Below are positions 14,321 through 31,509 of a DNA stretch of 32,000 bases, one piece after another (position 1 is the stretch's first letter; each line of letters begins with the position of its first letter). Made by a program: the position numbers and the translations under genes. Location of the stretch: the NCBI GenBank assembly GCA_021498095.1, contig JAIZWK010000001.1:4080001-4112000 (forward strand), in the 5' to 3' direction. The stretch comes from Candidatus Harpocratesius repetitus (GTDB lineage Archaea > Asgardarchaeota > Lokiarchaeia > Sigyniarchaeales > Promethearchaeaceae). The notes under the pieces were generated by a model that was given only the letters and a program-made list of their open reading frames with translations, made no database searches and had not been told where the DNA came from.

Positions 14321-14325
14321 TAATA

Positions 14326-17201: not shown

Positions 17202-18641
17202 TCATGGATTAATTTCATTACCTTGTTTTTCAAGTTCAGCTTCGTAGTGAGTTTGACACAATCCTCCAGATGGAAGAATTCGAAGATCTGTTTCTTTATC
17301 AAAGAAATGAATTTGATCATCCATGAATTGCACTTTTACTGGTTCATCGATCTTCAATTTTGTAATTCCTTCTTGTTTGACAATAATTTCTAAATTATCG
17401 AAAATTGAATTTCGAGATTTTCTTTTAATGGGAAAATCAATGTATACAAATGTATCTGAACCAATAGGCTCTAGAACACCAATTGTTGCATCCAGTTTTG
17501 CTTCAGGGGTATTCAATAAAATATGTTCAGGTCGGATACCCAAAGTTACTTCTTTATTAATAAAATTACTCAATCCTACCTTATAATAATCAGGAATATT
17601 ATAAGAAAATGCTTCTGATACAAATTGAAGCTGTTCACTGTTTTTTTCGATTCTTCCTTCAACAAAATTCATAGGAGGAGATCCTATAAAACCAGCTACG
17701 AACTTATTCACTGGTTGTCGGTACACTTCTTCTGGAGTTCCAACTTGATTTGCTATGCCTTCATTTAACACTACAATACGGTTTCCTAATGTCATTGCTT
17801 CTATTTGATCATGAGTTACATATAAGGTCGTAACTCTAAGCTTTTTGGTTAATCGTTCTAATTCAGCCCGCATCTGAACCCTAAGTTTTGCATCTAAATT
17901 GCTTAATGGTTCATCCATCAAGAAAGCTTTTGGATTTCGAATAATTGCACGCCCTAATGCAACTCGTTGGCGCTGTCCACCACTCAATTGTTTAGGTTTT
18001 TTCCAAAGTTGAGTCTCAATACCCAATAACTCAGATGTTTCTTTTACCTTTTGCCGAATTTTCTCTTCTCTGGAAAGATATTCTTGAAATATTGGAATCT
18101 TCATCTTCATTGCCCAAAAACGAAGATTCATCATTTTAATATCTTGTCTAGTCTCAGGGAAGGAATATAACATAAAAATCCACCCCAAAATCCCTGCAAC
18201 AAATATTAAATTAATATATTCGGGAACAATTTGGCCCAAAAGCTGGCAAAATCCATAATATAAACTAACAATACCTCCGTAAAATAAAAGAAGAGCCATC
18301 GAAATCATCAAGTTTGCCCATTTTATTTTCTCTCGATTTCTGATACCAAATGCAAGGTTTTCATAGATTGTATAATGGGGATATAAAGCATAGGACTGAA
18401 AAACCATAGCTATATTCCTATCTTTCGGAGATATATCATTGATTATTTCTCCATCAATGGAAATAGTACCACTAGTTATAGTTTCTAATCCTGCCAACAT
18501 TCGGAGTGTAGTAGTTTTCCCACATCCGGATGGTCCGACTAAACAAACGAACTCTTCATCAGATACTTCTAAATTAAAGTTCTTAACTGCTTCAAATGTT
18601 CCAAATTTTTTAGTGATATTCTTAAATTCTATTTTTGCCAT
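17202..18641 (-). CDS. malK: Carbohydrate ABC importer ATPase (MalK/MsmK type) with an ~85-aa hydrophobic insert
   Basis: GPSGCGKT, VFQSYALYPH, LSGGQRQR, DEPLSNLD, VTHDQ, VAGFIGSPPMN and a TOBE-like C-terminus (LGIRPEH). AAGGAG RBS upstream. Confidence 0.95.
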   Translation of the reverse strand: MAKIEFKNITKKFGTFEAVKNFNLEVSDEEFVCLVGPSGCGKTTTLRMLAGLETITSGTISIDGEIINDISPKDRNIAMVFQSYALYPHYTIYENLAFGIRNREKIKWANLMISMALLLFYGGIVSLYYGFCQLLGQIVPEYINLIFVAGILGWIFMLYSFPETRQDIKMMNLRFWAMKMKIPIFQEYLSREEKIRQKVKETSELLGIETQLWKKPKQLSGGQRQRVALGRAIIRNPKAFLMDEPLSNLDAKLRVQMRAELERLTKKLRVTTLYVTHDQIEAMTLGNRIVVLNEGIANQVGTPEEVYRQPVNKFVAGFIGSPPMNFVEGRIEKNSEQLQFVSEAFSYNIPDYYKVGLSNFINKEVTLGIRPEHILLNTPEAKLDATIGVLEPIGSDTFVYIDFPIKRKSRNSIFDNLEIIVKQEGITKLKIDEPVKVQFMDDQIHFFDKETDLRILPSGGLCQTHYEAELEKQGNEINP

Positions 18642-18653
18642 TTTAATATCTCC

Positions 18654-20342
18654 TTACTTAACACTTCCTGCAACAGCACCTTTAGCTAAATCTTTTTGCA
18701 TAAACAAAAAGAACAATACAACAGGCAATGCAACCAGAATAGAATATGGAGCAAGTAATTCAAAAAAAGGAGCTTGATCTTGAGCATTCTCATAATTATC
18801 CGATAATAATGGTAGGGTATAATTTTGAGGTGTTCGTAACAATGTACGTGCTAAAATAAAATCTTGCCAAGAGCTCAGAAAAGTGAAAATTAATACTGCG
18901 ACTAATCCAGATCGAGCAAGTGGAAACGCAATTTTTGCAAAATTACCAAATCGTCCAGTACCATCAATAATAGCTGCTTCTTCAATATCTACAGGGATGG
19001 TTTCAAAATAACCCTTCATCATCCAAGTACAATATGCTGTAGTCCCAACGGCAGATGCTAATAAAATTCCACCAAATGTATCTACAAAACCTAAAGAAGC
19101 CCATATTACATATTGAGGGAGTAAAAGAATGATTCCAGGAAACATTTGTGTCGTTAGAATTAAATAGGTTAAGAAACTATTCCCTTTAAACTTAAAACGT
19201 GCCAAAGCATAAGCAGAGGTGACTGAAATCATAATTCCAATTAATCCAGTTCCCAAACCTAAACCAAAACTTCTTAAGAGCGCACCACTAAATGAAGGTT
19301 CATCAGAAGAAACTGCAAACATGACACTTGAATAATTTAAAATTAAATTATATAATGGTGAACCAGGTGATACACCTGTTAAAATCTCTTGATATGAAGA
19401 AAGTGACACCTTAATTACCAGATATACAGGAAAGAGCGAAAATATAACATAGGCAATTAACACCACATAAAACGGAGTCATTTTTATTAATTGAGAACTA
19501 TTTTGGATAAAATTCTCCTTTGATTCATTAGAGTGAAAGAAATATTTATAAAAATTAACAATAATTAAACCAAAAACAACAGAAAGACCAATTATGTCCC
19601 AAATTAATATTACATTATTATTTGCTTCTTCTTTAAAATAAAGTTTAATTAAGTTGATAAAATAAATTAAGAAACCTCCTAATATTACCAAAAACAAAAC
19701 TCTGATAATTTTAAGAATATTTTCTTTTTTAGGACTATTTTGAATTATATTAAAAGCAAACATAACAAAGACAGCCAGATATAAGAACATGAAAACCAAA
19801 GTAGATATTTCCATAAATTCTGAATAATTTCCTATATCCCCTCTGATCCAATCTGCACCGCTTTGAACTTTATCAACTGTATCTGGAATTGTTTCAATTA
19901 TTTTAATAGATTGATTAATCCAAAAACTTGTAAAGATCGCAATTCCAGTATATATTAAACCAAGAATTGAAACCATACGCATTTTGTCGTCCCAGTCTTT
20001 ATTTTTTAGCACATACCCGATTATAGCTATTGAAACAATGGTTAAAACAACCAAAGTTGCAAAATAAATACCATAATTCATGTGCAATAATCGTAATACA
20101 CGAGATAAATCCCCATCAGGTTGATCTCTATGATAGATTGGATTGTTGTTTTTCCATAAAGATCCAGTTCCATATTTAATGCGGTTCCATAATATTGTTT
20201 CTGTTTGCCAAAATCCTCCAATTATAAGAATTAATCCCATAACTATTAAAATCACAAGAAAATTTATTGGTCGAGTTTTAAATTTCTGGTCATTTACAGA
20301 GACATTGATATAATTTAAATCATTAATAATTTCTTCTGTCAT
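18654..20342 (-). CDS. malG: Carbohydrate ABC permease, MalG-like, with an ~287-aa N-terminal multi-TM extension
   Basis: SAYALARFKFKG, QMFPGIILLLPQY and EAA loop IEEAAIIDGTG. Start moved from TTG 20354, which overlaps GGAGGT, to ATG 20342. Confidence 0.88.
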   Translation of the reverse strand: MTEEIINDLNYINVSVNDQKFKTRPINFLVILIVMGLILIIGGFWQTETILWNRIKYGTGSLWKNNNPIYHRDQPDGDLSRVLRLLHMNYGIYFATLVVLTIVSIAIIGYVLKNKDWDDKMRMVSILGLIYTGIAIFTSFWINQSIKIIETIPDTVDKVQSGADWIRGDIGNYSEFMEISTLVFMFLYLAVFVMFAFNIIQNSPKKENILKIIRVLFLVILGGFLIYFINLIKLYFKEEANNNVILIWDIIGLSVVFGLIIVNFYKYFFHSNESKENFIQNSSQLIKMTPFYVVLIAYVIFSLFPVYLVIKVSLSSYQEILTGVSPGSPLYNLILNYSSVMFAVSSDEPSFSGALLRSFGLGLGTGLIGIMISVTSAYALARFKFKGNSFLTYLILTTQMFPGIILLLPQYVIWASLGFVDTFGGILLASAVGTTAYCTWMMKGYFETIPVDIEEAAIIDGTGRFGNFAKIAFPLARSGLVAVLIFTFLSSWQDFILARTLLRTPQNYTLPLLSDNYENAQDQAPFFELLAPYSILVALPVVLFFLFMQKDLAKGAVAGSVK

Positions 20343-21987
20343 TGTAATTTTCAACCTCCTTAAAAAGTTCTTTGGGTTTGCTTTTTTCTAATTGGCTCAT
20401 TTCTATATATCGATTGTAAATCTTTTCTTCCAACGTTCCTTTTTCGCCTACAAAGATTTTATCCGGATTAAATATCTTCTTGTAAGCACGACTGAAAGTT
20501 GTTAACAATAAGAATACAATGAAACTTAAAGCAGCGGCTCTTGCATAATCACGAGATTCATCGAATAAACTATAAATAAACGTTACAAAAATGGAATATA
20601 GCCGACTATTCGGAAGATTTTGTCCTTGTGCAAGAATGTAAACAACATTAAATAAATTAAAGGTCCAAACAAATCCCAGTAAAGATACTGTAAAAAGAGT
20701 AGGTTTAATTAAGGGAAAAGTTATTGATTTAAATTGAGTCCATGCATCGGCTCCATCAATTTCTGCAGCTTCATAAAGATCTGGAGGGATACCTTGCATG
20801 GCAGCTAAGAAACTAACCATCATGAAAGGCACTCCTAACCAGATATTAATAATTATAGCTGAAAAAGTAATCATAATAAACCTTTTATTTAAAATATAAA
20901 CTGAAGAATTTATCCAAAAAGAATCACCTGTAGTATCTTCTATATTGATTATTTTATAACTGAATAAATTGTTCTCAATTCCACCTAAAATCGGGTTAAT
21001 ATAATAATATAGAATCCATCCTAAAAGTACTCCAATGATTAAAAATACACTTCTAATTAAGGCGCGATAAGATTTATCTTTTATAATTTTTAGTTCAAAG
21101 AAATTAATTGATATTGAAAGAACTGCAAAAATAACTAGAGCACCAAAAATAATTGAAATTAAATTACCAACATTAAATGTGAAATATCCTTTTGGAAAAA
21201 TCTTATCTGTGTTTTTTCCTAAAAATCCATTTGGATTAAAAATGAAATTTTTCCATATTAATGTTGATGCAAATGAAGGAATTGCCCAAGGAATGATGAA
21301 AATACTACGGAAAAAACCTTTTCCCGCAAAATCCCGGTTCATTAAAACAGCTAATAAAATTCCAATTATAACATGAAAACATACACAGACAACTGTCCAA
21401 AAAACAGTATTAAACAATATTTGGACAAAATCTAGTTCTGTTGCGGTTAATACAACTCTATAATTCTCAAGTGGAATTACAATTGGAATGTAATTCCATA
21501 TAAATCTTAAAAGCCATAATAAAGAGGGTGCAACCAATAATCCTGAAAACAAAACAATTAAGGAAATTACTGGACTGGAAAGTTTGGATTTTTTCTTGAA
21601 TATTTTATAGCCTAAATTAATATATAGAAGATAAAAAATGGTTAAAATTAATAAAAATAATCCATAACTAATATCACCATTAGCTGTAAAAATACTGGTA
21701 TCTGTATATGTAAAAAATTCAAAAAAAGAAGTATTATTTAAATTTTTAAAATTGAAATAGAATTCAAATAATCGATCTCCTAGATCTCCAGCGGTAGGAT
21801 TTATATATAAACTCATAATTAAAGCGAAGAAAATAGGTAAGAAAATGAAGATAATAATAGAAAGTAAAGCAGGAAGAAGAAAGAGATAAGCCGTAGCAAG
21901 ATCATTTGAACGCATTGTTCCTTTTGATTTCTTGCGTTTGGTTGTTCTCTTAGCTTGTATTTGTGTTGCAGTTGTAATAGTTGACAT
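20323..21987 (-). CDS. malF: Carbohydrate ABC permease, MalF-like, with two extra TM hairpins
   Basis: AYLFLLPA, FRSIFIIPWAIPS, NIWLGVPF and EAA loop LYEAAEIDGA. Start set to ATG 21987 behind a GGGGGT RBS (the track starts at 22071, inside the upstream gene). Confidence 0.88.
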   Translation of the reverse strand: MSTITTATQIQAKRTTKRKKSKGTMRSNDLATAYLFLLPALLSIIIFIFLPIFFALIMSLYINPTAGDLGDRLFEFYFNFKNLNNTSFFEFFTYTDTSIFTANGDISYGLFLLILTIFYLLYINLGYKIFKKKSKLSSPVISLIVLFSGLLVAPSLLWLLRFIWNYIPIVIPLENYRVVLTATELDFVQILFNTVFWTVVCVCFHVIIGILLAVLMNRDFAGKGFFRSIFIIPWAIPSFASTLIWKNFIFNPNGFLGKNTDKIFPKGYFTFNVGNLISIIFGALVIFAVLSISINFFELKIIKDKSYRALIRSVFLIIGVLLGWILYYYINPILGGIENNLFSYKIINIEDTTGDSFWINSSVYILNKRFIMITFSAIIINIWLGVPFMMVSFLAAMQGIPPDLYEAAEIDGADAWTQFKSITFPLIKPTLFTVSLLGFVWTFNLFNVVYILAQGQNLPNSRLYSIFVTFIYSLFDESRDYARAAALSFIVFLLLTTFSRAYKKIFNPDKIFVGEKGTLEEKIYNRYIEMSQLEKSKPKELFKEVENYNDRRNY

Positions 21988-22018
21988 TGTTATTACCCCC
22001 GAATAAAAAAGAAAAAAA

Positions 22019-23491
22019 TTAAATCCTTCGTTTCCGTAAAAGAAGGAATGTAGTAATGGCAATCGCTCCAATGAATAAACTGATAGGATAAGAAGGTATT
22101 GAACTTGTTCCTTGAATCACATCATCAGTTAAATCTCCTGATTTTTTGGGCAAATATTCTCCCCACCTTACCAAAGTATTTGCAATACATTCATCAAGTG
22201 AAATTTCTCCAGCTAAATATTCATTAATTCGATCCCCAAAATCGGTTTCGATTTGAGCCCAATCCTTTGAAACAGGAACACGAAGTGCTGATTGAACTGC
22301 ATCCCAATAAGCTTTAACATAAGGATAAGAAAATGCTTCCTTAACTTCTGACATTTCCATTACACTTTTTCGAGAAGGAACGTGATAATAATCAATTGCA
22401 CCAATTTTTTGAGCTTCTTGACCACTCATATATTTGGCGAACAATACTGAAGCATTGTATTCTGCAGAATTTGGAACTACATGTTTAGATATTACATAAC
22501 CATGACATCCTACAGGGGCGCCTCTATGACCTTCTTCATCATGTGGTAGTTGTACAATTCCAAGATTATCTCCACCTTGAAAAATGGGTTCAATTTCAAT
22601 GTTCTGTTTTAATTCCCAAGGCCCTTGATTAATCATCGCTACCTTTCCAGAACGAAAACTTGGATTCAATGGACCCCAACCTTGATCTAACCAATTTGGA
22701 GTAACTGAACTATCAGTTAAGTTTTTCAAGAATTGAAGAGCTAATCGTGATTCAAGGCTATCGATAGCAACAGAATCTATATAAATTTCATCATTGTAGA
22801 ACATCTGAGCGCCATGACCAAAATAGTAAGGTTGTGCACCAAACATCATACCTGCTAAAGTTGTTGCATAAACATGATGGGTTTCTCCTCCATATTCATA
22901 TTCAGTTCCATTAACTTGGTTCAAAATATCCAAATATTCATCCCAAGTCCATGAAGTATTAATGCTTAAAGTACTTGTATCAATTCCAGCCAATTCAAAG
23001 ATTTCTTTATTATACATAATTGCTGGTGTATCGACTAATTGAGGATATGCCCAAATTTGATCATTTCCTTCAGAATCAGGATATGTGACCATTTCAATAG
23101 AAATATTGATGAAATCATCTAAATCTTCTTGAGAAAAAGTATCTGTCAATGGATTCAACATACCCGATGCAGCAAATTCTGGAATCCAATCCCGAGTAGC
23201 ACGCATTACATCGGGTTCTGTGTTAGCAATATACGAACTAGTAAAAAGATTGCGCGCATCGAAAAAATCGACATATAAAGCATTAACTTCAATATCAGGA
23301 TGTTCCGCTTCAAAATCTGTAATTAGTTGAATAACTCCTGGTTCTTCAGCAATATTTTCAGTATACCAAAAACTAATGCTTATAACAGCAGATTTTGGTT
23401 TTTGTGAAACTCCTACAACATTCGGGACAAATGCAAATCCGGAAATCGTAAGTAAGACTAAAAAGAATACAATTTGCTTTTTAATTTTCAT
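22019..23491 (-). CDS. Sugar ABC solute-binding protein (MalE/maltodextrin-like) with signal peptide and Loki-CTERM-like anchor
   Basis: FEAEHPDIEV, PDVMR..DWIPEFAASGMLNPL, YNKEIFE, GKVAMINQGPW; C-terminus IPSYPISLFIGAIAITTFLLLRKRRI. GGAGG RBS at 23499-23503 and an 11-bp overlap with the upstream gene. Confidence 0.88.
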   Translation of the reverse strand: MKIKKQIVFFLVLLTISGFAFVPNVVGVSQKPKSAVISISFWYTENIAEEPGVIQLITDFEAEHPDIEVNALYVDFFDARNLFTSSYIANTEPDVMRATRDWIPEFAASGMLNPLTDTFSQEDLDDFINISIEMVTYPDSEGNDQIWAYPQLVDTPAIMYNKEIFELAGIDTSTLSINTSWTWDEYLDILNQVNGTEYEYGGETHHVYATTLAGMMFGAQPYYFGHGAQMFYNDEIYIDSVAIDSLESRLALQFLKNLTDSSVTPNWLDQGWGPLNPSFRSGKVAMINQGPWELKQNIEIEPIFQGGDNLGIVQLPHDEEGHRGAPVGCHGYVISKHVVPNSAEYNASVLFAKYMSGQEAQKIGAIDYYHVPSRKSVMEMSEVKEAFSYPYVKAYWDAVQSALRVPVSKDWAQIETDFGDRINEYLAGEISLDECIANTLVRWGEYLPKKSGDLTDDVIQGTSSIPSYPISLFIGAIAITTFLLLRKRRI

Positions 23492-24980
23492 AATATTTCC
23501 TCCATTTTTTGGTAAAAAAAGAAACTAGTCCTAATCCTATTATGCTGCTTATAATTACTAATGAGGGACTTCCAAATGAAATACCTCCAGATGTTTCTCC
23601 ATAGAATTTGAAACTACTGATATCTTGCCCAATGGCTGGATGATCTGCTTGCCTGAGCACTTTAGCATCAATTCTTACTTGTAACGAAGTTGCACAAGTT
23701 GAGCCATTTTGAGCATCACGAATCATTGCAGTTACTTCGCTCTCAAAGATGTCTTTTATGTATAAATCCCAAAATCGTGAGATATAAACACCTTCTGCTT
23801 GTTCAACCAAAGGTTTGTATGATTGAATTATAAAATTATTAGAAAGACTTTCATCAGAATACACTGAATCAATTGCAGGCAATAAAAATTCATTTATTGC
23901 ATATTCTTTCATCGAATCAGGAGAACAGAGGTAATTTGCTAAATTCAAAGCATCTTCTCGTTTTGTAGTTGAATTACTGATCATTATTGCGGTAACTTCT
24001 AAAAATGGAGATTTTCCTTTAGAATTTTTAGGTGTTGGTGCTAATCCAAGTTTTGAAATATCAGAGAAAATTCCATCCGATGTCAGTTTTTTCATATCTT
24101 GAGCAAAAAGCATTGTTGAACTAACATTTTCGTTGATAGCAAAATCATCGTAGATTTTATCAGTTTTCAAACTATTGTCTACATTTACATAGAACCCTGT
24201 TTTGTAAGAAGGGGTCAGCTCATAATAATTCACTATATTATAAATATAATTAAGTGCATCTATAGAGTAATTTTCTAAGATTTTGTTGTGTTGTGCATCA
24301 ACAGAATCATTTTCAAAAAGGATTCCACCATCACCTTTAAAGAGTGTTAATTCGGCATCTTTAAAATTTAAAAATGAAAACCCAAATTGCTTATTATCGG
24401 GTAGGCTTTGATCATTCATTCGTGTAATTGCTTGTTGAAAAGCTGCCATATCCCAAGAGCCTCCAATTTCTGGAATTGTTGCAGTATTTACTTTATCTTT
24501 GTTATACACAAAAGCCATTACATCAACTGTTTGAGGGATTCCATAATAAGCAAGCATTTGTGTATTATATTCCCCATTTTCAACATAAAAATAAGAAACT
24601 GCGCGTAAAGCTTGAGGAATATAGTTATACTGCAAATCATTAACTGCTAGAGGAGCAATGTAATTTCTATGAGCTAAATCAGGTATCCATTCAGCATCTC
24701 CTTGAATTAAATCAGGAACTTTACCTGAACTATAAGCATTTTTGAATTCCATTCTCAAAGAATCTTTTGGAATATATGTTAAATTAACATTCACATCATG
24801 ATCGGTTTCGTATTGAGCAATTAAATCCAACATAGTATCATCCAAGAAATCTTCTTGCATGTACCACATCTCTAAAGAAGTAGTTTCAGCATGCACAGGA
24901 ATGGCAATTTCTGAAGCAATGATACTTGCTAGGAAAAGAGTTAATATTGCTGTTGCAAATAGTTGTTGTTGTTTTTTCAT
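23481..24980 (-). CDS. Second, more divergent sugar ABC solute-binding protein with signal peptide and C-terminal TM anchor
   Basis: YETDHDVNVNL, PDLIQGDAEWIPDLA, YGIPQTVDVMAFVYNKD; C-terminus GGISFGSPSLVIISSIIGLGLVSFFTKKWRK. Confidence 0.82.
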   Translation of the reverse strand: MKKQQQLFATAILTLFLASIIASEIAIPVHAETTSLEMWYMQEDFLDDTMLDLIAQYETDHDVNVNLTYIPKDSLRMEFKNAYSSGKVPDLIQGDAEWIPDLAHRNYIAPLAVNDLQYNYIPQALRAVSYFYVENGEYNTQMLAYYGIPQTVDVMAFVYNKDKVNTATIPEIGGSWDMAAFQQAITRMNDQSLPDNKQFGFSFLNFKDAELTLFKGDGGILFENDSVDAQHNKILENYSIDALNYIYNIVNYYELTPSYKTGFYVNVDNSLKTDKIYDDFAINENVSSTMLFAQDMKKLTSDGIFSDISKLGLAPTPKNSKGKSPFLEVTAIMISNSTTKREDALNLANYLCSPDSMKEYAINEFLLPAIDSVYSDESLSNNFIIQSYKPLVEQAEGVYISRFWDLYIKDIFESEVTAMIRDAQNGSTCATSLQVRIDAKVLRQADHPAIGQDISSFKFYGETSGGISFGSPSLVIISSIIGLGLVSFFTKKWRKYYEN

Positions 24981-25037: not shown

Positions 25038-28000
25038 TTAACCACTTTTTAGTTTCTTATTTTGTAAATAGATAATTCCTATAACTAATGAGATAGTTAG
25101 ATATAAAATAGAAAATCCTGCAATCCCCTTTTTTGGTTCATCTTCAGGTTCTTTGAGAGAATTCACAGTAATGATTATTGAAGCGCTTGCGGATTTTCCA
25201 TTTGTATCAAATACCTTTACTGTAATATTATATATTCCTTCCTCAAATGAAAGAATGTATTCAGTTGCATTTGCTGGTAAAGTGCTTGCTAGTGTATTAT
25301 TTATAAAAATTTCAAAGTAATCAATGCTAACATCAGCAGGTACGGAAAAACTAATGCTAATATTCATTGTATTAATATTTTCAGGAAGCGTGTAGTTTTG
25401 ATTAGTTGTTGTTATTTCAATAGTAGGTTCTACAGTTTCAACGTTATCCATTCCTAAATATACAGCTGGAATTGTACAATATGTCTCTGAAGATTCATCA
25501 TAATTTCCTAAGATTTCAGTTTGATTCATATATGAAGGAAGGAGAACATCTACGACATTTGGATCATAGGATGAATCGTCTCCACCACCAAATTTCCATT
25601 CTTGGGGTTGTGCATAAAATTCACGAAATTTTTGAAAATCTTGTGAACCAACAACGACTGTATATGCCCAATCTGTTTGAGGTAGGCCAATTACTGAAGC
25701 TGGTGCTGAAAAGACGATAACCTTATCTACAGAATCACTAAAAGTGCTTACTCCTGAAACTTGAGTATCATCTTCAAGTAAAATATATTGAAGCCAGCCA
25801 TCGGCACGAACCATGTATTCCCATGCATGTTCTGATGAAATATTAAAATGACCATTTTGATCACAATCCGTTCTTCCAGAACCAGGAACATTATCTTCAT
25901 CAATATACACCTGCATTAGTGGATGGCTGTAACCTCCGGGACCATTCCATGGATTGAACAATTCGCGGAATTTAAACTCAAAATAGACGGTATCATCAAT
26001 ATATCCAACCCTGAATCTTAAAATATCCATTAATCCAGTTCTATTTACATCATAATCTGGATGCATTTGAGGATTGGTTGGATAAATTCCATGTTCATCA
26101 TAAGCAGGATCATCCATAGCAAATACTTCAACCATATTAACCCCACCAAAAGGAATATTTAAACTCCATGGTCCATCTTCAGGAGTAATATCAAAATTAT
26201 GCATACTGGACTCATTTGTTGCTAAAACTCGGAGATATAACAAATCACCTTTTTCAATTCCTAATAATGAAAATGGAATGCTCATTTCGCAGAAATCATC
26301 AATTGCTAGAGATATAGATGGGGTCGGAGATACTTCATCCCACTTGTAAGAAGAATTAACTTCAAAAACAGAAACATCTCCCGTTTCTAGATCAATTCGA
26401 ATTTCAGTAGTTATTTCAAAACCTAATATTTCAGAAGGATCGGATGAATCTGCAAATCTTGGAAATATTGTGGAATATTGAGCATTTGGATTTGAGAAAT
26501 ACAAGCCAACGGAATATCCTGTAATTGAACTAAGTGAATATGCATCTGTTGTATCTAATCTGATATGAAGATCTGTAAGAGCTTCATCAACGCCTAAATA
26601 AAGATCTTTAAACAATCGAGTTGGATCGGAAGCATTTGCATTTGAATAATGAGCAGCTAAAGTCCATTCATTGCTGTTGGTTTCAAAACCATCAATTGTT
26701 GGTAAGTATTTTCCTTGTATGCTTGCAGACACAGGAGGAAGCATTTTTAAGTACAAATAAGGGTAATTTTCCATTATTTCTGACTCGGTCCAATTAATGC
26801 TTTTATAAACACCACGGAGAATCGTTTTAAACTGCCAATCGAAGAGTTCATCATGTCCAGAATCTTGATCAGAACCATACCACCAGAACCAATCACTTCC
26901 TTCAGCAGCATATAAAGCTTCCCATGCATCTGGCAAATCATCTTTAGATAAGCTATGATCGGTCATATACTGAATAAGATCTTGTCGAGTAGTAATTAAA
27001 CGATCCCATGCTTCATTTTCATCATCCTCACCAATCCATGTATTCAAATCTCCTGCCCATGAACCAGTTGCTAATTGGATCTCTTGTAAAGTGCTGGGGG
27101 GATGTTCAGCAAGATATTGTTTGGGAGTAATTGTTCGCAACCAACCTTCATCTTGTGCTTCTTCCAATTTCTGATACATATATTCGCGGAATAGATTACC
27201 AGTGTATTCAACACGACCATCTCCATCTAAGTCATATTGATAATTTTCCCAGGCATTTTCCCCATCTAAAGCTACAGTAAAAACGGGATCTTTATCATCA
27301 GTCCAGCTATCTCGATAGGTTTTTAACATTTCGAGCATATTTGTTGCAGCTACTTCTGGATCTAGTCCACCATAATTAAAACCAATTTCATCTGAAAGCT
27401 GTTGATGTCGGAAAAATACAACTGAACTATATCCATCTTTTTTAACAACGTAGGGCTGAAACCATTGCTCAGGTGTAAGTTGACTTACACCCAAACTATT
27501 TTGAAGCACAGTATAATCAGTAACAAACCATTCAATACCACTTTGATTCACTAAGGGAATAATTTCGTCGCTAACTGCTTCTTCCGAAGGCCACATTCCG
27601 ACAGGATATTTCCCAAATAATGAAGCAGTATAATTTTTTCCTTTTTGAATTTGTGCCAAAGCATCTTCAGTCCAGAGAGTATTTTGATCAGGTAGAGGTA
27701 AATCAGCCACACCTTCATTCACTTCTCTGGCATTTGTTAAATTAATTAATAAAGGCAATATTGGATGATAAAATGGAGTAGTGATTATTTCTAAACGACC
27801 TTCATTTTGAAGTTGCTTATGAAGGGAGATAACTTGTTCAACAATAGAATAAGCATAATCCAAAACTCCATTTTTCATAGCACTGTTATAACCTCCCACT
27901 CCATTAGCATCATCAGTCAAAACTTTCAATGTATATCCAAATGGATTGACTGGAGGTTGATAAGGTTGTTCTGTAGTATATCGTGGATTTATCCAATGAG

Positions 28001-28619
28001 CAAAAAAGAGGGTTTTTAAATCTAAAAAGTCTTGATCTGTAAAACCTTCTACCGCTTCTTGTAATGTATTATAACTATTACGTTTTTCACTCAATTCAAA
28101 ATATCGAGTTCCATTTTGACGAAATTGACCGTTTATATCGAAGAAATACTGGATTACCACACTTTTATTTTCGTCTGACATTGCAGATTCATCCATTCGA
28201 GCTAATTCAATTCTTCGATCAAAAGCAGTTCCATTAATATAGTCAACAAGTTGTTTTAACATTGAAGGTGTCAAGTTGATTGTAACGTTAATATCAGGAT
28301 AATCATTTAAGACATCAGCCATGTAAGGATATGAGTTGGAACCATGCATAAAAACCCATGGTTGTTCATATATTCCTGTTTCTGGGTCTTGATATGATGG
28401 TTGATGTTGATGCCAAATTATGACTAAGTTTAATACCGTATCATTCGATATACTCGTTTCATAATTTATCGAAATATCAGGCATTTTTGTTAAAGAAACA
28501 ATTGATGAATTATATTCGGATGAAAATGTTGGAAAGATTATCATGATAAGTAAACTGGCAAAAAGAATGCCTTGTGAAAATTTATTAATTTTTCTTGAAT
28601 TATATTGCAATAGATTCAC
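25038..28619 (-). CDS. apu: Secreted, C-terminally anchored GH57 amylopullulanase (Thermococcales type) with DOMON/glucodextranase-like and Ig-like C-terminal modules
   Basis: GH57 conserved regions WHQHQP (W69), TTPFYHPILPL, WPSE (E346 nucleophile position), LDGENAWE (D452 acid/base position) and AEGSDWFWW. N-terminal signal peptide; C-terminus GIAGFSILYLTISLVIGIIYLQNKK. Confidence 0.92.
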   Translation of the reverse strand: MNLLQYNSRKINKFSQGILFASLLIMIIFPTFSSEYNSSIVSLTKMPDISINYETSISNDTVLNLVIIWHQHQPSYQDPETGIYEQPWVFMHGSNSYPYMADVLNDYPDINVTINLTPSMLKQLVDYINGTAFDRRIELARMDESAMSDENKSVVIQYFFDINGQFRQNGTRYFELSEKRNSYNTLQEAVEGFTDQDFLDLKTLFFAHWINPRYTTEQPYQPPVNPFGYTLKVLTDDANGVGGYNSAMKNGVLDYAYSIVEQVISLHKQLQNEGRLEIITTPFYHPILPLLINLTNAREVNEGVADLPLPDQNTLWTEDALAQIQKGKNYTASLFGKYPVGMWPSEEAVSDEIIPLVNQSGIEWFVTDYTVLQNSLGVSQLTPEQWFQPYVVKKDGYSSVVFFRHQQLSDEIGFNYGGLDPEVAATNMLEMLKTYRDSWTDDKDPVFTVALDGENAWENYQYDLDGDGRVEYTGNLFREYMYQKLEEAQDEGWLRTITPKQYLAEHPPSTLQEIQLATGSWAGDLNTWIGEDDENEAWDRLITTRQDLIQYMTDHSLSKDDLPDAWEALYAAEGSDWFWWYGSDQDSGHDELFDWQFKTILRGVYKSINWTESEIMENYPYLYLKMLPPVSASIQGKYLPTIDGFETNSNEWTLAAHYSNANASDPTRLFKDLYLGVDEALTDLHIRLDTTDAYSLSSITGYSVGLYFSNPNAQYSTIFPRFADSSDPSEILGFEITTEIRIDLETGDVSVFEVNSSYKWDEVSPTPSISLAIDDFCEMSIPFSLLGIEKGDLLYLRVLATNESSMHNFDITPEDGPWSLNIPFGGVNMVEVFAMDDPAYDEHGIYPTNPQMHPDYDVNRTGLMDILRFRVGYIDDTVYFEFKFRELFNPWNGPGGYSHPLMQVYIDEDNVPGSGRTDCDQNGHFNISSEHAWEYMVRADGWLQYILLEDDTQVSGVSTFSDSVDKVIVFSAPASVIGLPQTDWAYTVVVGSQDFQKFREFYAQPQEWKFGGGDDSSYDPNVVDVLLPSYMNQTEILGNYDESSETYCTIPAVYLGMDNVETVEPTIEITTTNQNYTLPENINTMNISISFSVPADVSIDYFEIFINNTLASTLPANATEYILSFEEGIYNITVKVFDTNGKSASASIIITVNSLKEPEDEPKKGIAGFSILYLTISLVIGIIYLQNKKLKSG

Positions 28620-28740
28620 CTTTCTTTAAATTGAAATTACTAAATACTTATTTATTTTTTTTCACGCTGTTTGTTATAAAAAAAATATGCATTATTAGCT
28701 ATATCGAAACTTAAGTTTTGGCAATAAAAGCCACAAAGAT

Positions 28741-28784
28741 AAAAAAAAGGTTAAATGAAACACTTCTCATTCTGATGGTTTCAT
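28741..28784 (-). terminator. Possible hairpin plus oligo-U terminator or attenuator between the first and second genes of the glucan locus
   Basis: Stem ATGAAAC (28755-28761) / GTTTCAT (28778-28784); on the minus strand it is followed after 6 nt by T8 (A-run 28741-28748). Confidence 0.4.
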
Positions 28785-28812
28785 CTAACTGAGACATTTA
28801 TACAATCTGCGA

Positions 28813-31509
28813 TTATTTTCGTTTTCGGAGCAAAATTACTGCCGATCCAAATAATGCCAAAAGCATTATTCCAACACTATAACCTGGAATCTGGAAGCCT
28901 CCACCATCATCGTCTGTGGCTGTATCATCTGTGGCAGTATCATCTGTGGCAGTATCGTCGGTTGCAGCTCCTTCAACGTTGATTGTGATTTCATCATAAC
29001 CAGCATTTCCTGATTTATCTGTAGCAACAACACGAATAACATTTGCTCCAGCTGATAAGGTGAGTGTTGCAGAATTACCTTCACCAGCTTCAGGAATGTA
29101 CACACCATTCACATATACTTTCACTTCTGAAATTCCAGCAAAAGTACCTTGATCTGGATCTTCAACTGTCCATGTGATTTCTTGTTCAATTGTAGTTCCT
29201 GAACTTATGGTAAGATTAGTTCCATCTGCAGGAGAAGTAATATTCACTACAGGATCAGTTGTATCCACTTCAAAAGATAAACCTTCTCCTACTGCTAACA
29301 ATGTAGCATATTGTTGAGCACCTACATCATAGCTGGTTGAAATGGTTTCTTGTAAAGCAGCGGGATCATCTGCAGTAGGAACCAGAATATCACAGTAGTT
29401 TGGATCATAAGCGCTATCATCCCCACCTCCAAAGTCCCATTCACCATTTTCAGCCAGATGATTTCGGAAATCGTTAAAGTTTGCTGAAGCAACCATTACA
29501 TAATATTTCCATGTACTGTTAGCAACTGTATTAATTAGAGTTTCTGGAACATATAGATTAAACCAGTGTTGACCGTTGATAAATTGATAACTTGTAGTAA
29601 TACCTGTTCCTGCAGTTTGAGGTGATGCAATTGTTTCAGGAGTGAAATATCGGCTCATCCAGCCATCACCATAGAATCCAATATCCCATGGATATTCATC
29701 TTGAACTTTAATACTTGATTTTAGTACTCCTTCAGTAGTACCACCAGGTTGCATATCAATCAAAACCACAAACATTTGATGCGAGAAGTTACCTGCACCC
29801 CAACCAGGATCATAAGAATCGAGTAATCGGAAATCAAATGAAGTACCATAAGCATTAGCACTTACATTGAATTGCAATAAATCGAATAGTCCAACTCCAG
29901 GACCAAAAGCAGCATTAGTTGGATAGGTGCCCCATTCATCACCTTGAGGATCGCTCATATTGAAAATGAGAGATTTAGGAGGTTCAATACCAATATGAAC
30001 TAGGAAATTTCCAGTTTGAACAGTATTGTTATTTTCAGCAATAATATAGAATTCGACTGTCGTGCCATTTGAAAAAGGTCCTAAACTACCTTTGAAAATA
30101 GCATTATCAGATGAGGCAGAGTCATAAGCCATAGGAGATAAATTCCAAACTCCAGTATCATTAAGAGTATAGTTGATATTAACTTCTGTCATTACATCGA
30201 AGGTTACTTTATCAGTTCCATTCCATAATTGTTCAATTTGAACTTCAACTTCAAAAGCTTCATCTGGATCTTTAAATCCACCAGCAGGAGTCACTGCACC
30301 AATAAAACCTAAGTCAATTGGTGGCATTGGAGAAATACCATTCTCAAATGAATAATACTCTTCGGCAGCAGTTGCATTTACATCACCTGCATAGATAAAC
30401 CAGTAAAATTTGTCACCCACTGAATATCCATCTTCTACTAATAAGGGGATAGTGTATCGATAAATTTCATTAGCACCAGCCATATCGCCTGTCTCGTGAT
30501 GCATCATTACTTCATAGGTACTATTTGAATCTGAAGTTGAGTTATAATATGTAATATGCAAAATTGGCCATTGAGAATTATTCATAAATTCAGAATGACT
30601 ATCACTATACCACATTTCATAATAGAATTCCATGTCTAATCCTAAGGTTACATTTCCATCTTTATCGTTAACCTTTGCGCTTGTATAAGAACCATCGCCA
30701 TTTTCTCCAGACCATCCAATTGAATATGGAATTAATTGAGGATCACCATCAGCATCAGCAATTTTTACTGCTACATAGGTATGATATTCATCATTTTCAA
30801 CACCACCATATTGATTAGGAATAACATCTCCAGGATTTCCACCAATCATAGCAGCGAAGAAACGCAATTCGGCATCCGCAGGAATACCTGCAGGATAAAG
30901 AAGATCATATGGAATAAAAGCTTCAAATGTCATAGGAATACCATAACTCCAAGTTCCATCAAAAGCAGTTTCATTAACTGCAGATGTAATAAAACCTGTT
31001 GTAAGATTTGCATAATTCCCAATTTCATCTGTAAAGTTTAAAAGACTCCAAGGACTTGCCCAGTTTCCTTGATCTGATAAAAGAACCAAATTTGGCACAA
31101 ATCCATCACTTGTGAACTTTAAGGATTTTTCATATCCGTAAGTAGGAACAGTACTATAATCAGTTATTCCAGTATTTCCTGCGTCTGTATCAATAAATAC
31201 GTTAAATTGATTAGCAGGACCAGCAAGAGTAATTTTCAATCCCACAAATATTCCGGTATCGTTTAAAGCAAAATACAACCCATCAAGACCCCAATCAGCA
31301 TTCCAAGATGATTGATCAGGATCCAACCTTACTGTATAATTACCATCAGTCCAATCGCTCCCAATAACACCATCAATAATAATATTATTGTGACTGGAAG
31401 TATCTACAACTGCAGATGCACCAGCTAAAAAGGGAGAAAACGACATGGCAACTAACAGGGTCATAAGCAAAACACCAGTTGATTTTTTCGTCATGATAGT
31501 TGTCACCAT
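28813..31509 (-). CDS. Secreted surface protein with glucodextranase/DOMON-like and Ig-like modules, no recognisable catalytic domain, Loki-CTERM-like anchor
   Basis: Signal peptide; DPQGDEWGTYPTN and WDFGGGDDSAYDPN are shared with the amylopullulanase tail; Thr/Asp linker; C-terminus IPGYSVGIMLLALFGSAVILLRKRK. Start may be ATG 31494, which lies behind GGTGA. Confidence 0.8.
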   Translation of the reverse strand: MVTTIMTKKSTGVLLMTLLVAMSFSPFLAGASAVVDTSSHNNIIIDGVIGSDWTDGNYTVRLDPDQSSWNADWGLDGLYFALNDTGIFVGLKITLAGPANQFNVFIDTDAGNTGITDYSTVPTYGYEKSLKFTSDGFVPNLVLLSDQGNWASPWSLLNFTDEIGNYANLTTGFITSAVNETAFDGTWSYGIPMTFEAFIPYDLLYPAGIPADAELRFFAAMIGGNPGDVIPNQYGGVENDEYHTYVAVKIADADGDPQLIPYSIGWSGENGDGSYTSAKVNDKDGNVTLGLDMEFYYEMWYSDSHSEFMNNSQWPILHITYYNSTSDSNSTYEVMMHHETGDMAGANEIYRYTIPLLVEDGYSVGDKFYWFIYAGDVNATAAEEYYSFENGISPMPPIDLGFIGAVTPAGGFKDPDEAFEVEVQIEQLWNGTDKVTFDVMTEVNINYTLNDTGVWNLSPMAYDSASSDNAIFKGSLGPFSNGTTVEFYIIAENNNTVQTGNFLVHIGIEPPKSLIFNMSDPQGDEWGTYPTNAAFGPGVGLFDLLQFNVSANAYGTSFDFRLLDSYDPGWGAGNFSHQMFVVLIDMQPGGTTEGVLKSSIKVQDEYPWDIGFYGDGWMSRYFTPETIASPQTAGTGITTSYQFINGQHWFNLYVPETLINTVANSTWKYYVMVASANFNDFRNHLAENGEWDFGGGDDSAYDPNYCDILVPTADDPAALQETISTSYDVGAQQYATLLAVGEGLSFEVDTTDPVVNITSPADGTNLTISSGTTIEQEITWTVEDPDQGTFAGISEVKVYVNGVYIPEAGEGNSATLTLSAGANVIRVVATDKSGNAGYDEITINVEGAATDDTATDDTATDDTATDDDGGGFQIPGYSVGIMLLALFGSAVILLRKRK
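28909..28968 (-). repeat. Four tandem 15-bp units encoding (A/T)ATDD linker repeats
   Basis: ATCGTCTGTGGCTGT, ATCATCTGTGGCAGT twice, and ATCGTCGGTTGCAGC on +; translates as AATDD-TATDD-TATDD-TATDD just before the anchor. Confidence 0.9.

What the first reader, a model, noticed from the sequence alone, without database searches (positions are those of the whole stretch)
18078..18332. MalK-type ABC ATPase with a predicted transmembrane hairpin inserted in its helical subdomain
Seen: the Q-loop Q82 and the L of LSGGQ (L219) are 137 residues apart, versus about 52 in ordinary MalK/MsmK. The ~85 extra residues (about 104-188) contain two uncharged hydrophobic stretches, WANLMISMALLLFYGGIVSLYYGF and INLIFVAGILGWIFMLYSF, joined by a short loop. 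The frame is intact and all catalytic motifs remain. Established: type I importer NBDs are soluble subunits that dock on the permease EAA loops, and the helical subdomain rotates during the ATP cycle. Inference: a membrane-tethered NBD whose hairpin could pack with the extra helices of the permeases, or couple transport to a membrane signal. I do not know of a described example.
Basis: partly seen in the sequence, partly recalled or inferred. Interest (0 to 1): 0.82.

Follow-up and report, generated by a model that had tools for sequence, protein, structure and literature searches.

The report
Membrane hairpin inside a sugar-importer ATPase
The normally soluble ATP-burning subunit of a starch-sugar ABC importer in this Asgard archaeon carries a conserved pair of membrane-type helices inside its catalytic domain, so it is probably an integral membrane protein; I found this layout in no solved structure, family model or paper that I searched.

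Summary
The gene at 17202-18641 (minus strand, 479 aa) is an intact MalK/UgpC/MsmX-type ABC ATPase. It has an in-frame insert of about 85 residues (about 105-191) between the first two helices of the helical subdomain. The distance from the Q-loop to LSGGQ is 137 residues, against exactly 52 in all 55 ordinary relatives measured.

The insert is not an artefact. A contig from an independent study spans it without gaps, and 63 related proteins carry it at the same site.

It looks like a membrane hairpin:
- Across the family there are two charge-free hydrophobic helices.
- K/R residues cluster on both flanks, and the short connecting loop has almost none.
- AlphaFold2 models the region as helices with pLDDT above 90.

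The insert has no detectable homologue outside this ATPase clade. With the insert columns removed, the clade forms one side of a single tree branch.

It occurs in 15 of 400 Asgard species genomes. It always sits in the same operon, with two permeases of nearly double the normal size. The conserved extra 4-helix block of one permease is found in the same genomes and in no other.

The most likely reading is a membrane-embedded ATPase subunit of an enlarged alpha-glucan importer. Whether the hairpin packs against the permeases is untested. First-stage notes of this scan flag the same MalK insert in another genome, and similar inserts in other ABC families.

The parts
17202..18641 (-). ABC importer ATPase (NBD) of the CUT1 / UgpC-MalK-MsmX type, 479 aa. 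All catalytic motifs and the C-terminal OB_MalK/TOBE regulatory domain are present.
   Evidence: PDB phmmer best hit 7x0q, E 3e-104. Pfam ABC_tran, OB_MalK and TOBE_2. NCBIfam UgpC subfamily 440.8 bits against a cut-off of 432. AF2 mean pLDDT 91.2.
18069..18329 (-). In-frame insert of about 85 residues (about 105-191) in the loop between helix 1 (92-103) and helix 2 (192-206) of the helical subdomain.
   Evidence: Gap in all PDB and NCBIfam alignments between query 104 and about 192. Alignment with ordinary relatives. No Pfam or NCBIfam family for residues 100-195, even at E 10 for Pfam. pN 0.18 against pS 0.82 compared with the 86%-identical homologue.
18225..18311 (-). Predicted TM helix 1 (residues about 111-139; AF2 helix 107-136). 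Contains the near-invariant Tyr121.
   Evidence: KD19 1.85. Eisenberg mean H 0.74 across the family, with low moment. Family-wide K/R and D/E are near zero at 111-135, and Y121 is Y in 55 of 60 and W in 5 of 60. pLDDT 92-95.
18159..18218 (-). Predicted TM helix 2 (residues about 142-161; AF2 helix 140-160). Has a small-residue motif (A/G149, G150, S/G153) and conserved F147 and F161.
   Evidence: KD19 2.02. No charged residue at 145-161 in any of 60 sequences. The loop 136-144 is N/G/D/P-rich with 0.18 K+R per sequence.
18069..18158 (-). Basic return segment (residues 162-191). It holds a conserved P/S-E-x-R motif (E163 95% D/E, R165 93% K/R), helix 162-179, and an N-terminal extension of the next NBD helix (183-206).
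   Evidence: AF2 secondary structure. 5.2 K+R per sequence at 162-189. Conservation table. Amphipathicity is only moderate: muH is 0.26 across the family and 0.07 in the window's own sequence.
18654..20354 (-). MalG-like permease, 566 aa. It has a canonical BPD_transp_1 core with an EAA motif, plus an N-terminal block of about 290 residues with extra TM helices. Four of these helices are conserved family-wide.
   Evidence: Pfam BPD_transp_1 at 373-551. TM scan. Alignment of 15 orthologues with invariant W56 N57 R58 Y61 G64 W67 P72 W145 W169, and E458 E459 A460 for the EAA motif. The N-terminal block is found in 14 of 400 Asgard genomes, all of which also carry the ATPase insert.
20323..22071 (-). 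MalF-like permease, up to 582 aa (start codon uncertain), with at least 9 hydrophobic segments.
   Evidence: Pfam BPD_transp_1. TM scan. Orthologues of 491-937 aa in every related locus.
22019..24980 (-). Two solute-binding proteins (490 and 499 aa), each with an N-terminal and a C-terminal hydrophobic segment.
   Evidence: Pfam SBP_bac_1 and SBP_bac_8. TM scan.
25038..31509 (-). GH57 enzyme with a Glucodextran_C module (1193 aa) and a GH57-less paralogue with Glucodextran_C (898 aa). These give the substrate context, alpha-glucan.
   Evidence: Pfam. The same enzyme families flank the transporter in distant loci.

Best explanation
The gene encodes the ATPase subunit of a type I (CUT1-family) ABC importer for alpha-glucan oligosaccharides. 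Its helical subdomain carries an integral-membrane helical hairpin. After NBD helix 92-103, which faces the membrane subunits, the chain leaves the domain as a long helix. It crosses the membrane at about 111-139 and turns in a 3-9 residue outer loop. It returns as a second helix at about 142-161, ends at a conserved Glu-x-Arg boundary motif, and rejoins the NBD through a basic helix. Both ends are therefore cytoplasmic, and the ATPase fold and its motifs stay intact. The result is an NBD that is permanently embedded in the membrane beside the permease it docks on, inside a transporter whose two permeases also have roughly doubled helix counts.

Shown by computation: the insert itself, its conservation, its single origin, its hydrophobic and charge pattern, its helical model, and its strict linkage to the enlarged permeases.

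Inferred: that it spans the bilayer; that it lies against permease helices rather than free in lipid; and that it stabilises assembly, or transmits helical-subdomain rotation to the membrane domain.
For: Insert and intact motifs.

The sequence is real and translated. An independent contig spans it without gaps. There is no frameshift or stop in 63 homologues. pN is 0.18 against pS 0.82 versus P0003, and 0.28 against 0.88 versus P0005.

Membrane character:
- The KD19 maximum is 1.9-2.95 in all 63 insert-bearers, against 0.65 or lower in 55 ordinary relatives.
- Eisenberg mean H is 0.74 and 0.75 with low moment.
- There are zero charges at 145-161 and almost none at 111-135 in 60 sequences.
- K+R per sequence is 1.4 in the 6-residue N flank, 5.2 in the C flank and 0.18 in the loop.
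- Small-residue motifs occur at 126/130 and 149/150/153.
- Two relatives (P0031, P0033) have added a further 60-residue hydrophobic pair after the hairpin.

Structure: AF2 pLDDT is 92-95 over helices 107-136 and 140-160.

Linkage:
- Every locus examined whose contig reaches the neighbouring genes has the order F-like (491-937 aa), G-like (475-591 aa), NBD, with at least one SBP gene upstream in most.
- The G-like N-terminal block is present in 14 of 400 Asgard genomes. All 14 also carry the insert. The 15th insert genome has its contig cut inside that gene.
- The same genome's other CUT1 system pairs an ordinary 381-aa NBD (spacing 52) with a fused permease of two ordinary-sized halves.

Insertion site: the helical subdomain is the variable, permease-facing part of the NBD and forms the cleft for the coupling helix (PMC6906923; PMC3150292). 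From memory and not verified here, the aligned E. coli MalK position (about K106) cross-links to the EAA loops (Hunke et al. 2000).
Against: - No experiment and no dedicated topology predictor was available. The evidence is hydrophobicity scales, charge bias and a monomer model whose coordinates I could not inspect, so I did not verify the orientation of the hairpin relative to the membrane-facing surface.
- Summed Hessa-scale values (scale recalled from memory) are about 0 to +1.3 kcal/mol for the window's own two segments. These are marginal, like the core helices of multi-pass proteins, and not typical of strong autonomous anchors.
- TM2 has only about 17-20 hydrophobic residues.
- Conservation shows no clear helical periodicity, so there is no evidence for a conserved packing face.
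- The return helix is only weakly amphipathic.
- Co-occurrence with the enlarged permeases comes from one monophyletic operon lineage. It may therefore reflect shared descent rather than functional dependence.
Confidence: 0.7

Rival explanations
1. The hairpin is a plain lipid anchor. It keeps the ATPase at the membrane, for example so that it stays with its transporter when the NBD dimer opens, or in large or irregular Asgard cells. It makes no specific contact with the permeases and has no role in coupling.
For: There is no helical periodicity of conservation in either helix. Insert sequence identity falls to 13-30% across the family while hydrophobicity is kept. The complex prediction gave no usable result (not evidence either way).
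Against: Tyr121, F147, G150, F161, E163 and R165 are near-invariant over a family that is otherwise 13-30% identical in the insert. That is more than a generic anchor needs. The hydrophobicity is marginal for an autonomous anchor. The insert is never found without the enlarged permeases. The insertion point lies in the permease-docking subdomain.
Confidence: 0.2
2. The insert does not cross the membrane. It is a cytoplasmic or membrane-surface helical arm, or a re-entrant hairpin, that packs on the NBD, on the cytoplasmic loops of the permeases, or on another protein.
For: TM2 is short (17-20 hydrophobic residues). Hessa-type sums are about 0 to +1.3. The AF2 monomer model cannot distinguish membrane from solvent.
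Against: Two consecutive helices have no charged residue in 60 sequences, and Eisenberg H of 0.74-0.75 lies in the transmembrane range. The turn lacks K/R while both flanks are basic. Relatives add further hydrophobic pairs. Ordinary soluble relatives never exceed KD19 0.65 in this interval.
Confidence: 0.08
3. The insert is not part of the mature protein or is not real: an assembly chimera, an intron, an intein or a mobile-element remnant.
For: None found. It interrupts a conserved domain at a sharply defined point.
Against: An independent-study contig is collinear, with no joints. The insert is in frame, with the same length to within 3 residues in about 57 of 63 homologues. pN is far below pS. 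It matches no Pfam or NCBIfam family, including intein domains, even at E 10 for Pfam. There is only one copy in the genome. There are no homologues elsewhere among 1.84 billion representatives.
Confidence: 0.02

Closest known systems
MalK / UgpC / MsmX / SugC-type ATPases of CUT1 type I ABC importers (e.g. PDB 7x0q, 6yir, 2d62, 1g29, 2r6g, 8ja7)
   Same: Same fold and all catalytic motifs. Same C-terminal OB/TOBE regulatory domain. Same operon logic, with SBPs and two BPD_transp_1 permeases carrying EAA coupling motifs. TM-score by target is 0.84-0.93.
   Different: All solved and ordinary relatives are soluble subunits of 353-393 aa with a Q-loop to LSGGQ spacing of 52. This protein has 137, because two membrane-type helices and a basic return helix are inserted between helical-subdomain helices 1 and 2. 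No PDB chain, AFDB cluster or ESM Atlas cluster representative covers the insert: TM by query is 0.77 or lower.
ABC transporters with NBD and TMD on one chain (half-transporters; MacB-type N-terminal NBD fusions). From general knowledge.
   Same: The ATPase is covalently part of a membrane protein.
   Different: In those, whole domains are joined end to end. Here a hairpin is nested inside the NBD fold itself, the permeases remain separate genes, and no fused form was found (weak evidence).
Accessory TM helices that intercalate into ABC transporter TMDs, e.g. the LptC helix in LptB2FGC. From memory; an analogy of mechanism only.
   Same: An extra TM element from outside the core permease fold could sit at the periphery of the TMD and modulate ATPase coupling.
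   Different: LptC is a separate protein of an exporter-like system. Here the element belongs to the ATPase of an importer, and no contact has been shown.
TM-like inserts in other ABC ATPases noted by this scan (OppD of Marine Group II archaea, LivG of planctomycetes, LolD of Phycisphaerales, DppF). These are unreviewed AI notes.
   Same: The same general phenomenon: a hydrophobic hairpin (or hairpins) inside a normally soluble NBD, next to an enlarged permease.
   Different: They are different ABC families and apparently independent insertions. The insert profile from this family finds none of them. I did not test those notes.

Membership tests
ABC transporter nucleotide-binding domain (PF00005) | Walker A, Q-loop, LSGGQ signature, Walker B with catalytic Glu, D-loop and H-loop | tested here: met
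   GPSGCGKT 36-43, Q82, LSGGQ 219-223, D243-E244, SNLD 247-250 and H277. The key residues of these motifs are invariant in the 84-row alignment. PF00005 E 1.7e-30.
CUT1-type importer ATPase (UgpC/MalK/MsmX subfamily) | Reaches the curated family score and has the C-terminal OB_MalK/TOBE regulatory domain | tested here: met
   NCBIfam NF008653 (UgpC subfamily) 440.8 bits against a cut-off of 432. PF17912 E 2e-13 and PF08402.
MalK proper (NCBIfam NF008233 equivalog) | Score at or above the equivalog cut-off | tested here: not met
   371 bits against a cut-off of 568. It should be called MalK-like, not MalK.
CUT1-type importer ATPase | Encoded with an SBP and two BPD_transp_1 permeases bearing the EAA coupling motif | tested here: met
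   Pfam on the four upstream genes. E458 E459 A460 ... G465 are invariant in the G-like permease.
CUT1-type importer ATPase | Soluble peripheral subunit with a compact helical subdomain (Q-loop to signature about 52 residues) | tested here: not met
   The spacing is 137 against 52 in 55 of 55 ordinary relatives. KD19 maximum is 2.02 against 0.65 or lower.
Helical-hairpin membrane anchor (N-in/C-in) | Two uncharged hydrophobic helices of TM length, a short turn, and the positive-inside rule | tested here: met
   KD and Eisenberg values, charge counts and the AF2 helices.
Helical-hairpin membrane anchor (N-in/C-in) | Demonstrated membrane integration and topology | not testable with these tools
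   Needs fractionation, accessibility mapping or a structure.
Intein / intron / mobile insertion (considered) | Splicing motifs or homing-endonuclease domains, no selection on the encoded peptide, and extra copies elsewhere | tested here: not met
   No family hit for residues 100-195. pN is far below pS. Single copy in the genome.

The most novel reading that the evidence does not exclude
The hairpin is a second, intramembrane coupling element. Because it is rooted in the helical subdomain, which rotates during the ATP cycle, it would move against the extra permease helices. It could transmit or gate the power stroke directly within the bilayer, or make ATPase activity sensitive to the state of the membrane. 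Together with the analogous inserts this scan noted in OppD, LivG, LolD and DppF, that would define an overlooked class of ABC importers with membrane-embedded motors.
Probability: 0.25. Interest if true: 0.82.

Novelty: new variant of a known kind. Interest (0 to 1): 0.62.

Why it matters
The textbook view of type I ABC importers is that the ATPase is a soluble subunit. It touches the permeases only through the coupling-helix cleft, and it can be shared between transporters or released from them. An ATPase with its own membrane hairpin, rooted in the subdomain that rotates during the ATP cycle, breaks that view.

It would bear on three things: how the complex is assembled (the motor would need co-translational membrane insertion), whether NBDs can exchange between systems, and how force reaches the membrane domain.

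The family is small but conserved, and it belongs to a distinctive, fully membrane-attached alpha-glucan uptake locus of Asgard archaea. This gives a defined system for structural work. If the parallel cases in other ABC families hold up, the phenomenon is general and has been missed by annotation, which simply labels these proteins 'ABC transporter ATP-binding protein'.

Tried and rejected
- **Complex prediction.** I submitted the G-like permease (alignment A4) with insert residues 100-195 (from A3). The verdict was 'no answer', ipSAE 0.02 and 0.01, and the controls were not run. This is not evidence for or against binding.
- **RNA evidence.** No RNA holder was listed for the stretch, so expression and the mature transcript could not be checked.
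- **Fused forms.** A search among proteins of 840-2395 aa with the insert region found none. This is weak evidence only.
- **Named genome carriers.** The search for related loci with the insert alignment failed because no stretch was conserved enough. Organism names therefore come only from source labels.
- **Origin of the insert.** The insert profile against 1.84 billion representatives returned only 5 proteins, all members or fragments of the same family. The origin stays unknown.
- **Conserved helix face.** No periodicity of conservation was detected.
- **Amphipathic return helix.** The 'amphipathic interfacial helix' reading of residues 162-181 is only weakly supported: muH is 0.26 across the family and 0.07 in the window's own sequence.
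- **Literature.** Seven full-text searches and three papers read in part gave no description of a TM insert in an importer NBD. I could not verify from the library my recollection that MalK K106 cross-links to the EAA loops.
- **Model coordinates.** The AF2 model coordinates are not readable, so I could not measure the direction in which the hairpin leaves the NBD.

Full report
**What is there**

The minus-strand ORF 17202-18641 encodes a 479-aa protein, P0001. It is the last gene of a co-oriented cluster. In order, the cluster holds:
- a GH57 enzyme and a GH57-less paralogue (25038-31509);
- two solute-binding proteins;
- a MalF-like permease (up to 582 aa);
- a MalG-like permease (566 aa);
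- this ATPase.

P0001 matches solved MalK/MsmX/SugC-type ATPases at E 1e-104 to 1e-87. Every match is split into query 1-104 and query about 192-455. NCBIfam places it in the UgpC/MalK subfamily (440.8 bits, cut-off 432), again in two stretches. It stays below the MalK equivalog cut-off. Walker A, Q82, LSGGQ 219-223, Walker B with its Glu, the D-loop and H277 are present, and the key residues of these motifs are invariant in an 84-sequence alignment.

The finding's coordinates, 18078-18332, are residues 104-188. By alignment with ordinary relatives, the insert runs from about 105/107 to 191.

**Is it more than chance or artefact?**

Among the 121 best homologues, 63 have a Q-loop to signature spacing above 100 residues. 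Sixty of these measure 133-147 and three measure 192-194. All 63 have a 19-residue Kyte-Doolittle maximum of 1.9-2.95 in that interval. The 55 ordinary homologues in which both motifs were found all have a spacing of exactly 52 and a maximum of 0.65 or lower.

The inserts align with each other in register.

Contigs from a second, independent study cover 17701-18700 in one piece, with 20 substitutions and no gaps or joints.

Against the 86%- and 75%-identical homologues, the insert has pN 0.18 and 0.28 against pS 0.82 and 0.88. It is therefore translated and under purifying selection. It evolves about four times faster than the NBD core, and somewhat faster than the C-terminal regulatory domain (pN 0.13 and 0.23).

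The genome holds one copy.

**Anatomy of the insert**

AlphaFold2, run with the 84-row alignment, gives mean pLDDT 91.2 and pLDDT 92-95 over the insert. It models helices at 107-136, 140-160 and 162-179. A further helix at 183-206 extends the next NBD helix N-terminally.

Across 60 family members:
- Positions 111-135 and 145-161 carry essentially no charged residues.
- K/R cluster just before the first helix (positions 107 and 110) and after the second (165, 166, 169, 171, 178, 181, 186).
- The 136-144 turn is rich in N, G, D and P and has 0.18 K+R per sequence.
- Overall, K+R per sequence is 1.4 in the 6-residue N flank, 5.2 in the C flank and 0.18 in the loop.

This is the positive-inside pattern expected for an in-in hairpin hanging from a cytoplasmic domain.

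Eisenberg mean hydrophobicity is 0.74 and 0.75 with low moments. The window's own segments score KD 1.85 and 2.02, within the range of the accepted helices of the neighbouring permeases.

The best-conserved positions are Y121 (Y or W in all 60), F147, G150, F161, E163, R165, I168 and Y188. Small residues recur at 126/130 and 149/150/153.

Two relatives (P0031, P0033) carry a further 60-residue hydrophobic pair after the hairpin. Another (P0012) has a Lys/Glu-rich stretch before it and a longer outer loop.

Three caveats apply:
- Hessa-type sums (scale recalled from memory) are marginal, at 0 to +1.3.
- The second helix is short.
- The return helix is only weakly amphipathic, and I saw no conserved helical face.

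**Where the insert sits in the NBD**

It lies in the loop between the first and second helices of the helical subdomain. That subdomain is the most variable part of ABC ATPases. It forms the cleft that receives the permease coupling helix, and it rotates during the ATP cycle (PMC6906923; PMC3150292).

The aligned E. coli MalK position is about residues 104-106. My recollection that MalK K106C cross-links to the EAA loops (Hunke et al. 2000) would place the site on the membrane-facing surface, but I could not verify this in the library.

I could not read the model's coordinates, so the exit direction of the hairpin is inferred, not measured.

**Distribution and origin**

A profile of the insert alone was searched against 1.84 billion representative proteins. 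It found five hits, all members or fragments of this same family. The insert matches no Pfam or NCBIfam model.

No PDB chain, AFDB cluster or ESM Atlas cluster representative covers it. TM-score by query is 0.77 or lower, while TM-score by target reaches 0.84-0.94.

In a tree built without the insert columns, the 59 insert-bearers form one side of a single branch (SH-aLRT 93, one change). This is consistent with one origin. The ordinary sequences in that tree are only the nearest hits, so deeper sampling could change the picture.

Among 400 species genomes of the window's phylum, 15 carry the insert. They fall in 6 genera and 5 families, always with a single copy. The pattern is patchy: two genomes of the same genus, 87% and 92% complete, lack it.

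Source labels name Promethearchaeota, Thorarchaeota, Hodarchaeales and Candidatus Harpocratesius. One 'Methanobacteriota archaeon' label belongs to a gene identical to that of a genome of the same GTDB phylum. One '[Eubacterium] cellulosolvens' label sits on a locus with the same operon and 36% GC, and its ATPase nests among Asgard sequences in the tree. I treat that label as doubtful.

**Linkage to enlarged permeases**

Every locus examined whose contig reaches the neighbouring genes has the order F-like (491-937 aa), G-like (475-591 aa), NBD. At least one SBP gene lies upstream in most of them, and GH57/Glucodextran_C enzymes are usually nearby.

The G-like permeases share an N-terminal block of four TM helices. 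Its predicted outer loops carry invariant aromatic and polar residues (W56 N57 R58 Y61 G64 W67 P72, W145, W169). This block precedes a canonical core with an intact EAA motif.

A profile of that block finds it in 14 of 400 genomes of the phylum. All 14 also carry the insert. The 15th insert genome has its contig cut inside that gene.

The window's genome has one other CUT1 system. There, an ordinary 381-aa NBD (spacing 52) sits beside a fused permease made of two ordinary-sized BPD_transp_1 halves.

So the hairpin and the extra permease helices travel together. Because they share one evolutionary lineage, this is a single event and does not prove functional dependence.

**Mechanism**

I commit to the following reading. 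This is a canonical type I importer cycle: SBP docking, EAA-cleft coupling and ATP-driven NBD closure. Each ATPase is additionally stitched into the membrane by an in-in hairpin next to the permease it docks on. It forms part of a membrane assembly of roughly twice the usual helix count.

My estimates are:
- about 0.8 that the hairpin spans the membrane;
- about 0.55 that it packs specifically against permease helices;
- about 0.25 that it acts as a second, intramembrane coupling or sensing element.

The one complex prediction I could run gave no answer.

**Comparison and novelty**

By every tested criterion the protein is a member of the CUT1 ATPase subfamily, except the one that makes those subunits soluble. 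I found no solved structure, family model or paper describing a membrane hairpin nested in an importer NBD.

First-stage notes of this scan flag the same MalK insert in another genome. Follow-up notes describe analogous inserts in OppD, LivG and LolD, and a first-stage note describes one in DppF. These are unreviewed, and I did not test them. They suggest the phenomenon is recurrent, and the follow-up agents also found no description of it.

I class this as a new variant of a known kind.

Noticed in passing
window 19485-20354 (-), residues 1-290 of the G-like permease; alignments A4 and A5: The N-terminal extension of the MalG-like permease is a conserved 4-TM block. Its predicted extracellular loops carry invariant W/N/R/Y residues (W56 N57 R58 Y61 G64 W67 P72, W145, W169), the kind of residues that bind sugars or dock binding proteins. 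The window's copy has two further, non-conserved helices (213-266). The block has no Pfam match.
   Followed up: partly
L015:6343-7908 (-) and L020:9495-11111 (+); proteins P0031, P0033, P0012: Some family members enlarge the ATPase insert further. Two have an extra 60-residue hydrophobic pair after the hairpin, giving 4 predicted helices. One has a long Lys/Glu-rich low-complexity stretch before it and a longer outer loop.
   Followed up: partly
L010:10175-11950 (-); L003:3702-6515 (+): Permease enlargement continues within the family. One G-like orthologue has an additional hydrophobic insert of about 70 residues inside the core after the QYVI motif. One F-like orthologue is 937 aa.
   Followed up: no
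L023 (G000:C1:4195000-4207000), about 85 kb beyond the window: The genome's second CUT1 system consists of an SBP (493 aa), a single 697-aa permease with two BPD_transp_1 domains (a fused F+G), and an ordinary 381-aa ATPase. A GH2 enzyme lies close by.
   Followed up: partly
L004 / L016 and L003: Source labels appear unreliable. The 'Methanobacteriota archaeon' gene (GCA_003696825.1) is identical to that of a genome in the window's own GTDB phylum. A '[Eubacterium] cellulosolvens' label (GCA_975851105.1) sits on an Asgard-type operon with 36% GC.
   Followed up: partly
Fold-search results for model m435954028388: ESM Atlas clusters of cyanobacterial MalK-like proteins (416-431 aa) align over about 398 residues, more than ordinary relatives do. 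AFDB entries such as A0A1A9QCR0 (452 aa) align end to end with high rmsd. These may be other NBDs with inserts at or near the same site. Their sequences could not be fetched.
   Followed up: no
window 12683-17025 (+) and L021 / L022: The mre11-rad50 pair lies tail-to-tail next to the ATPase gene. The same neighbourhood (Metallophos + SMC/SbcC) is kept in the two closest relatives, but they have a PfkB sugar kinase gene in between that the window lacks.
   Followed up: no
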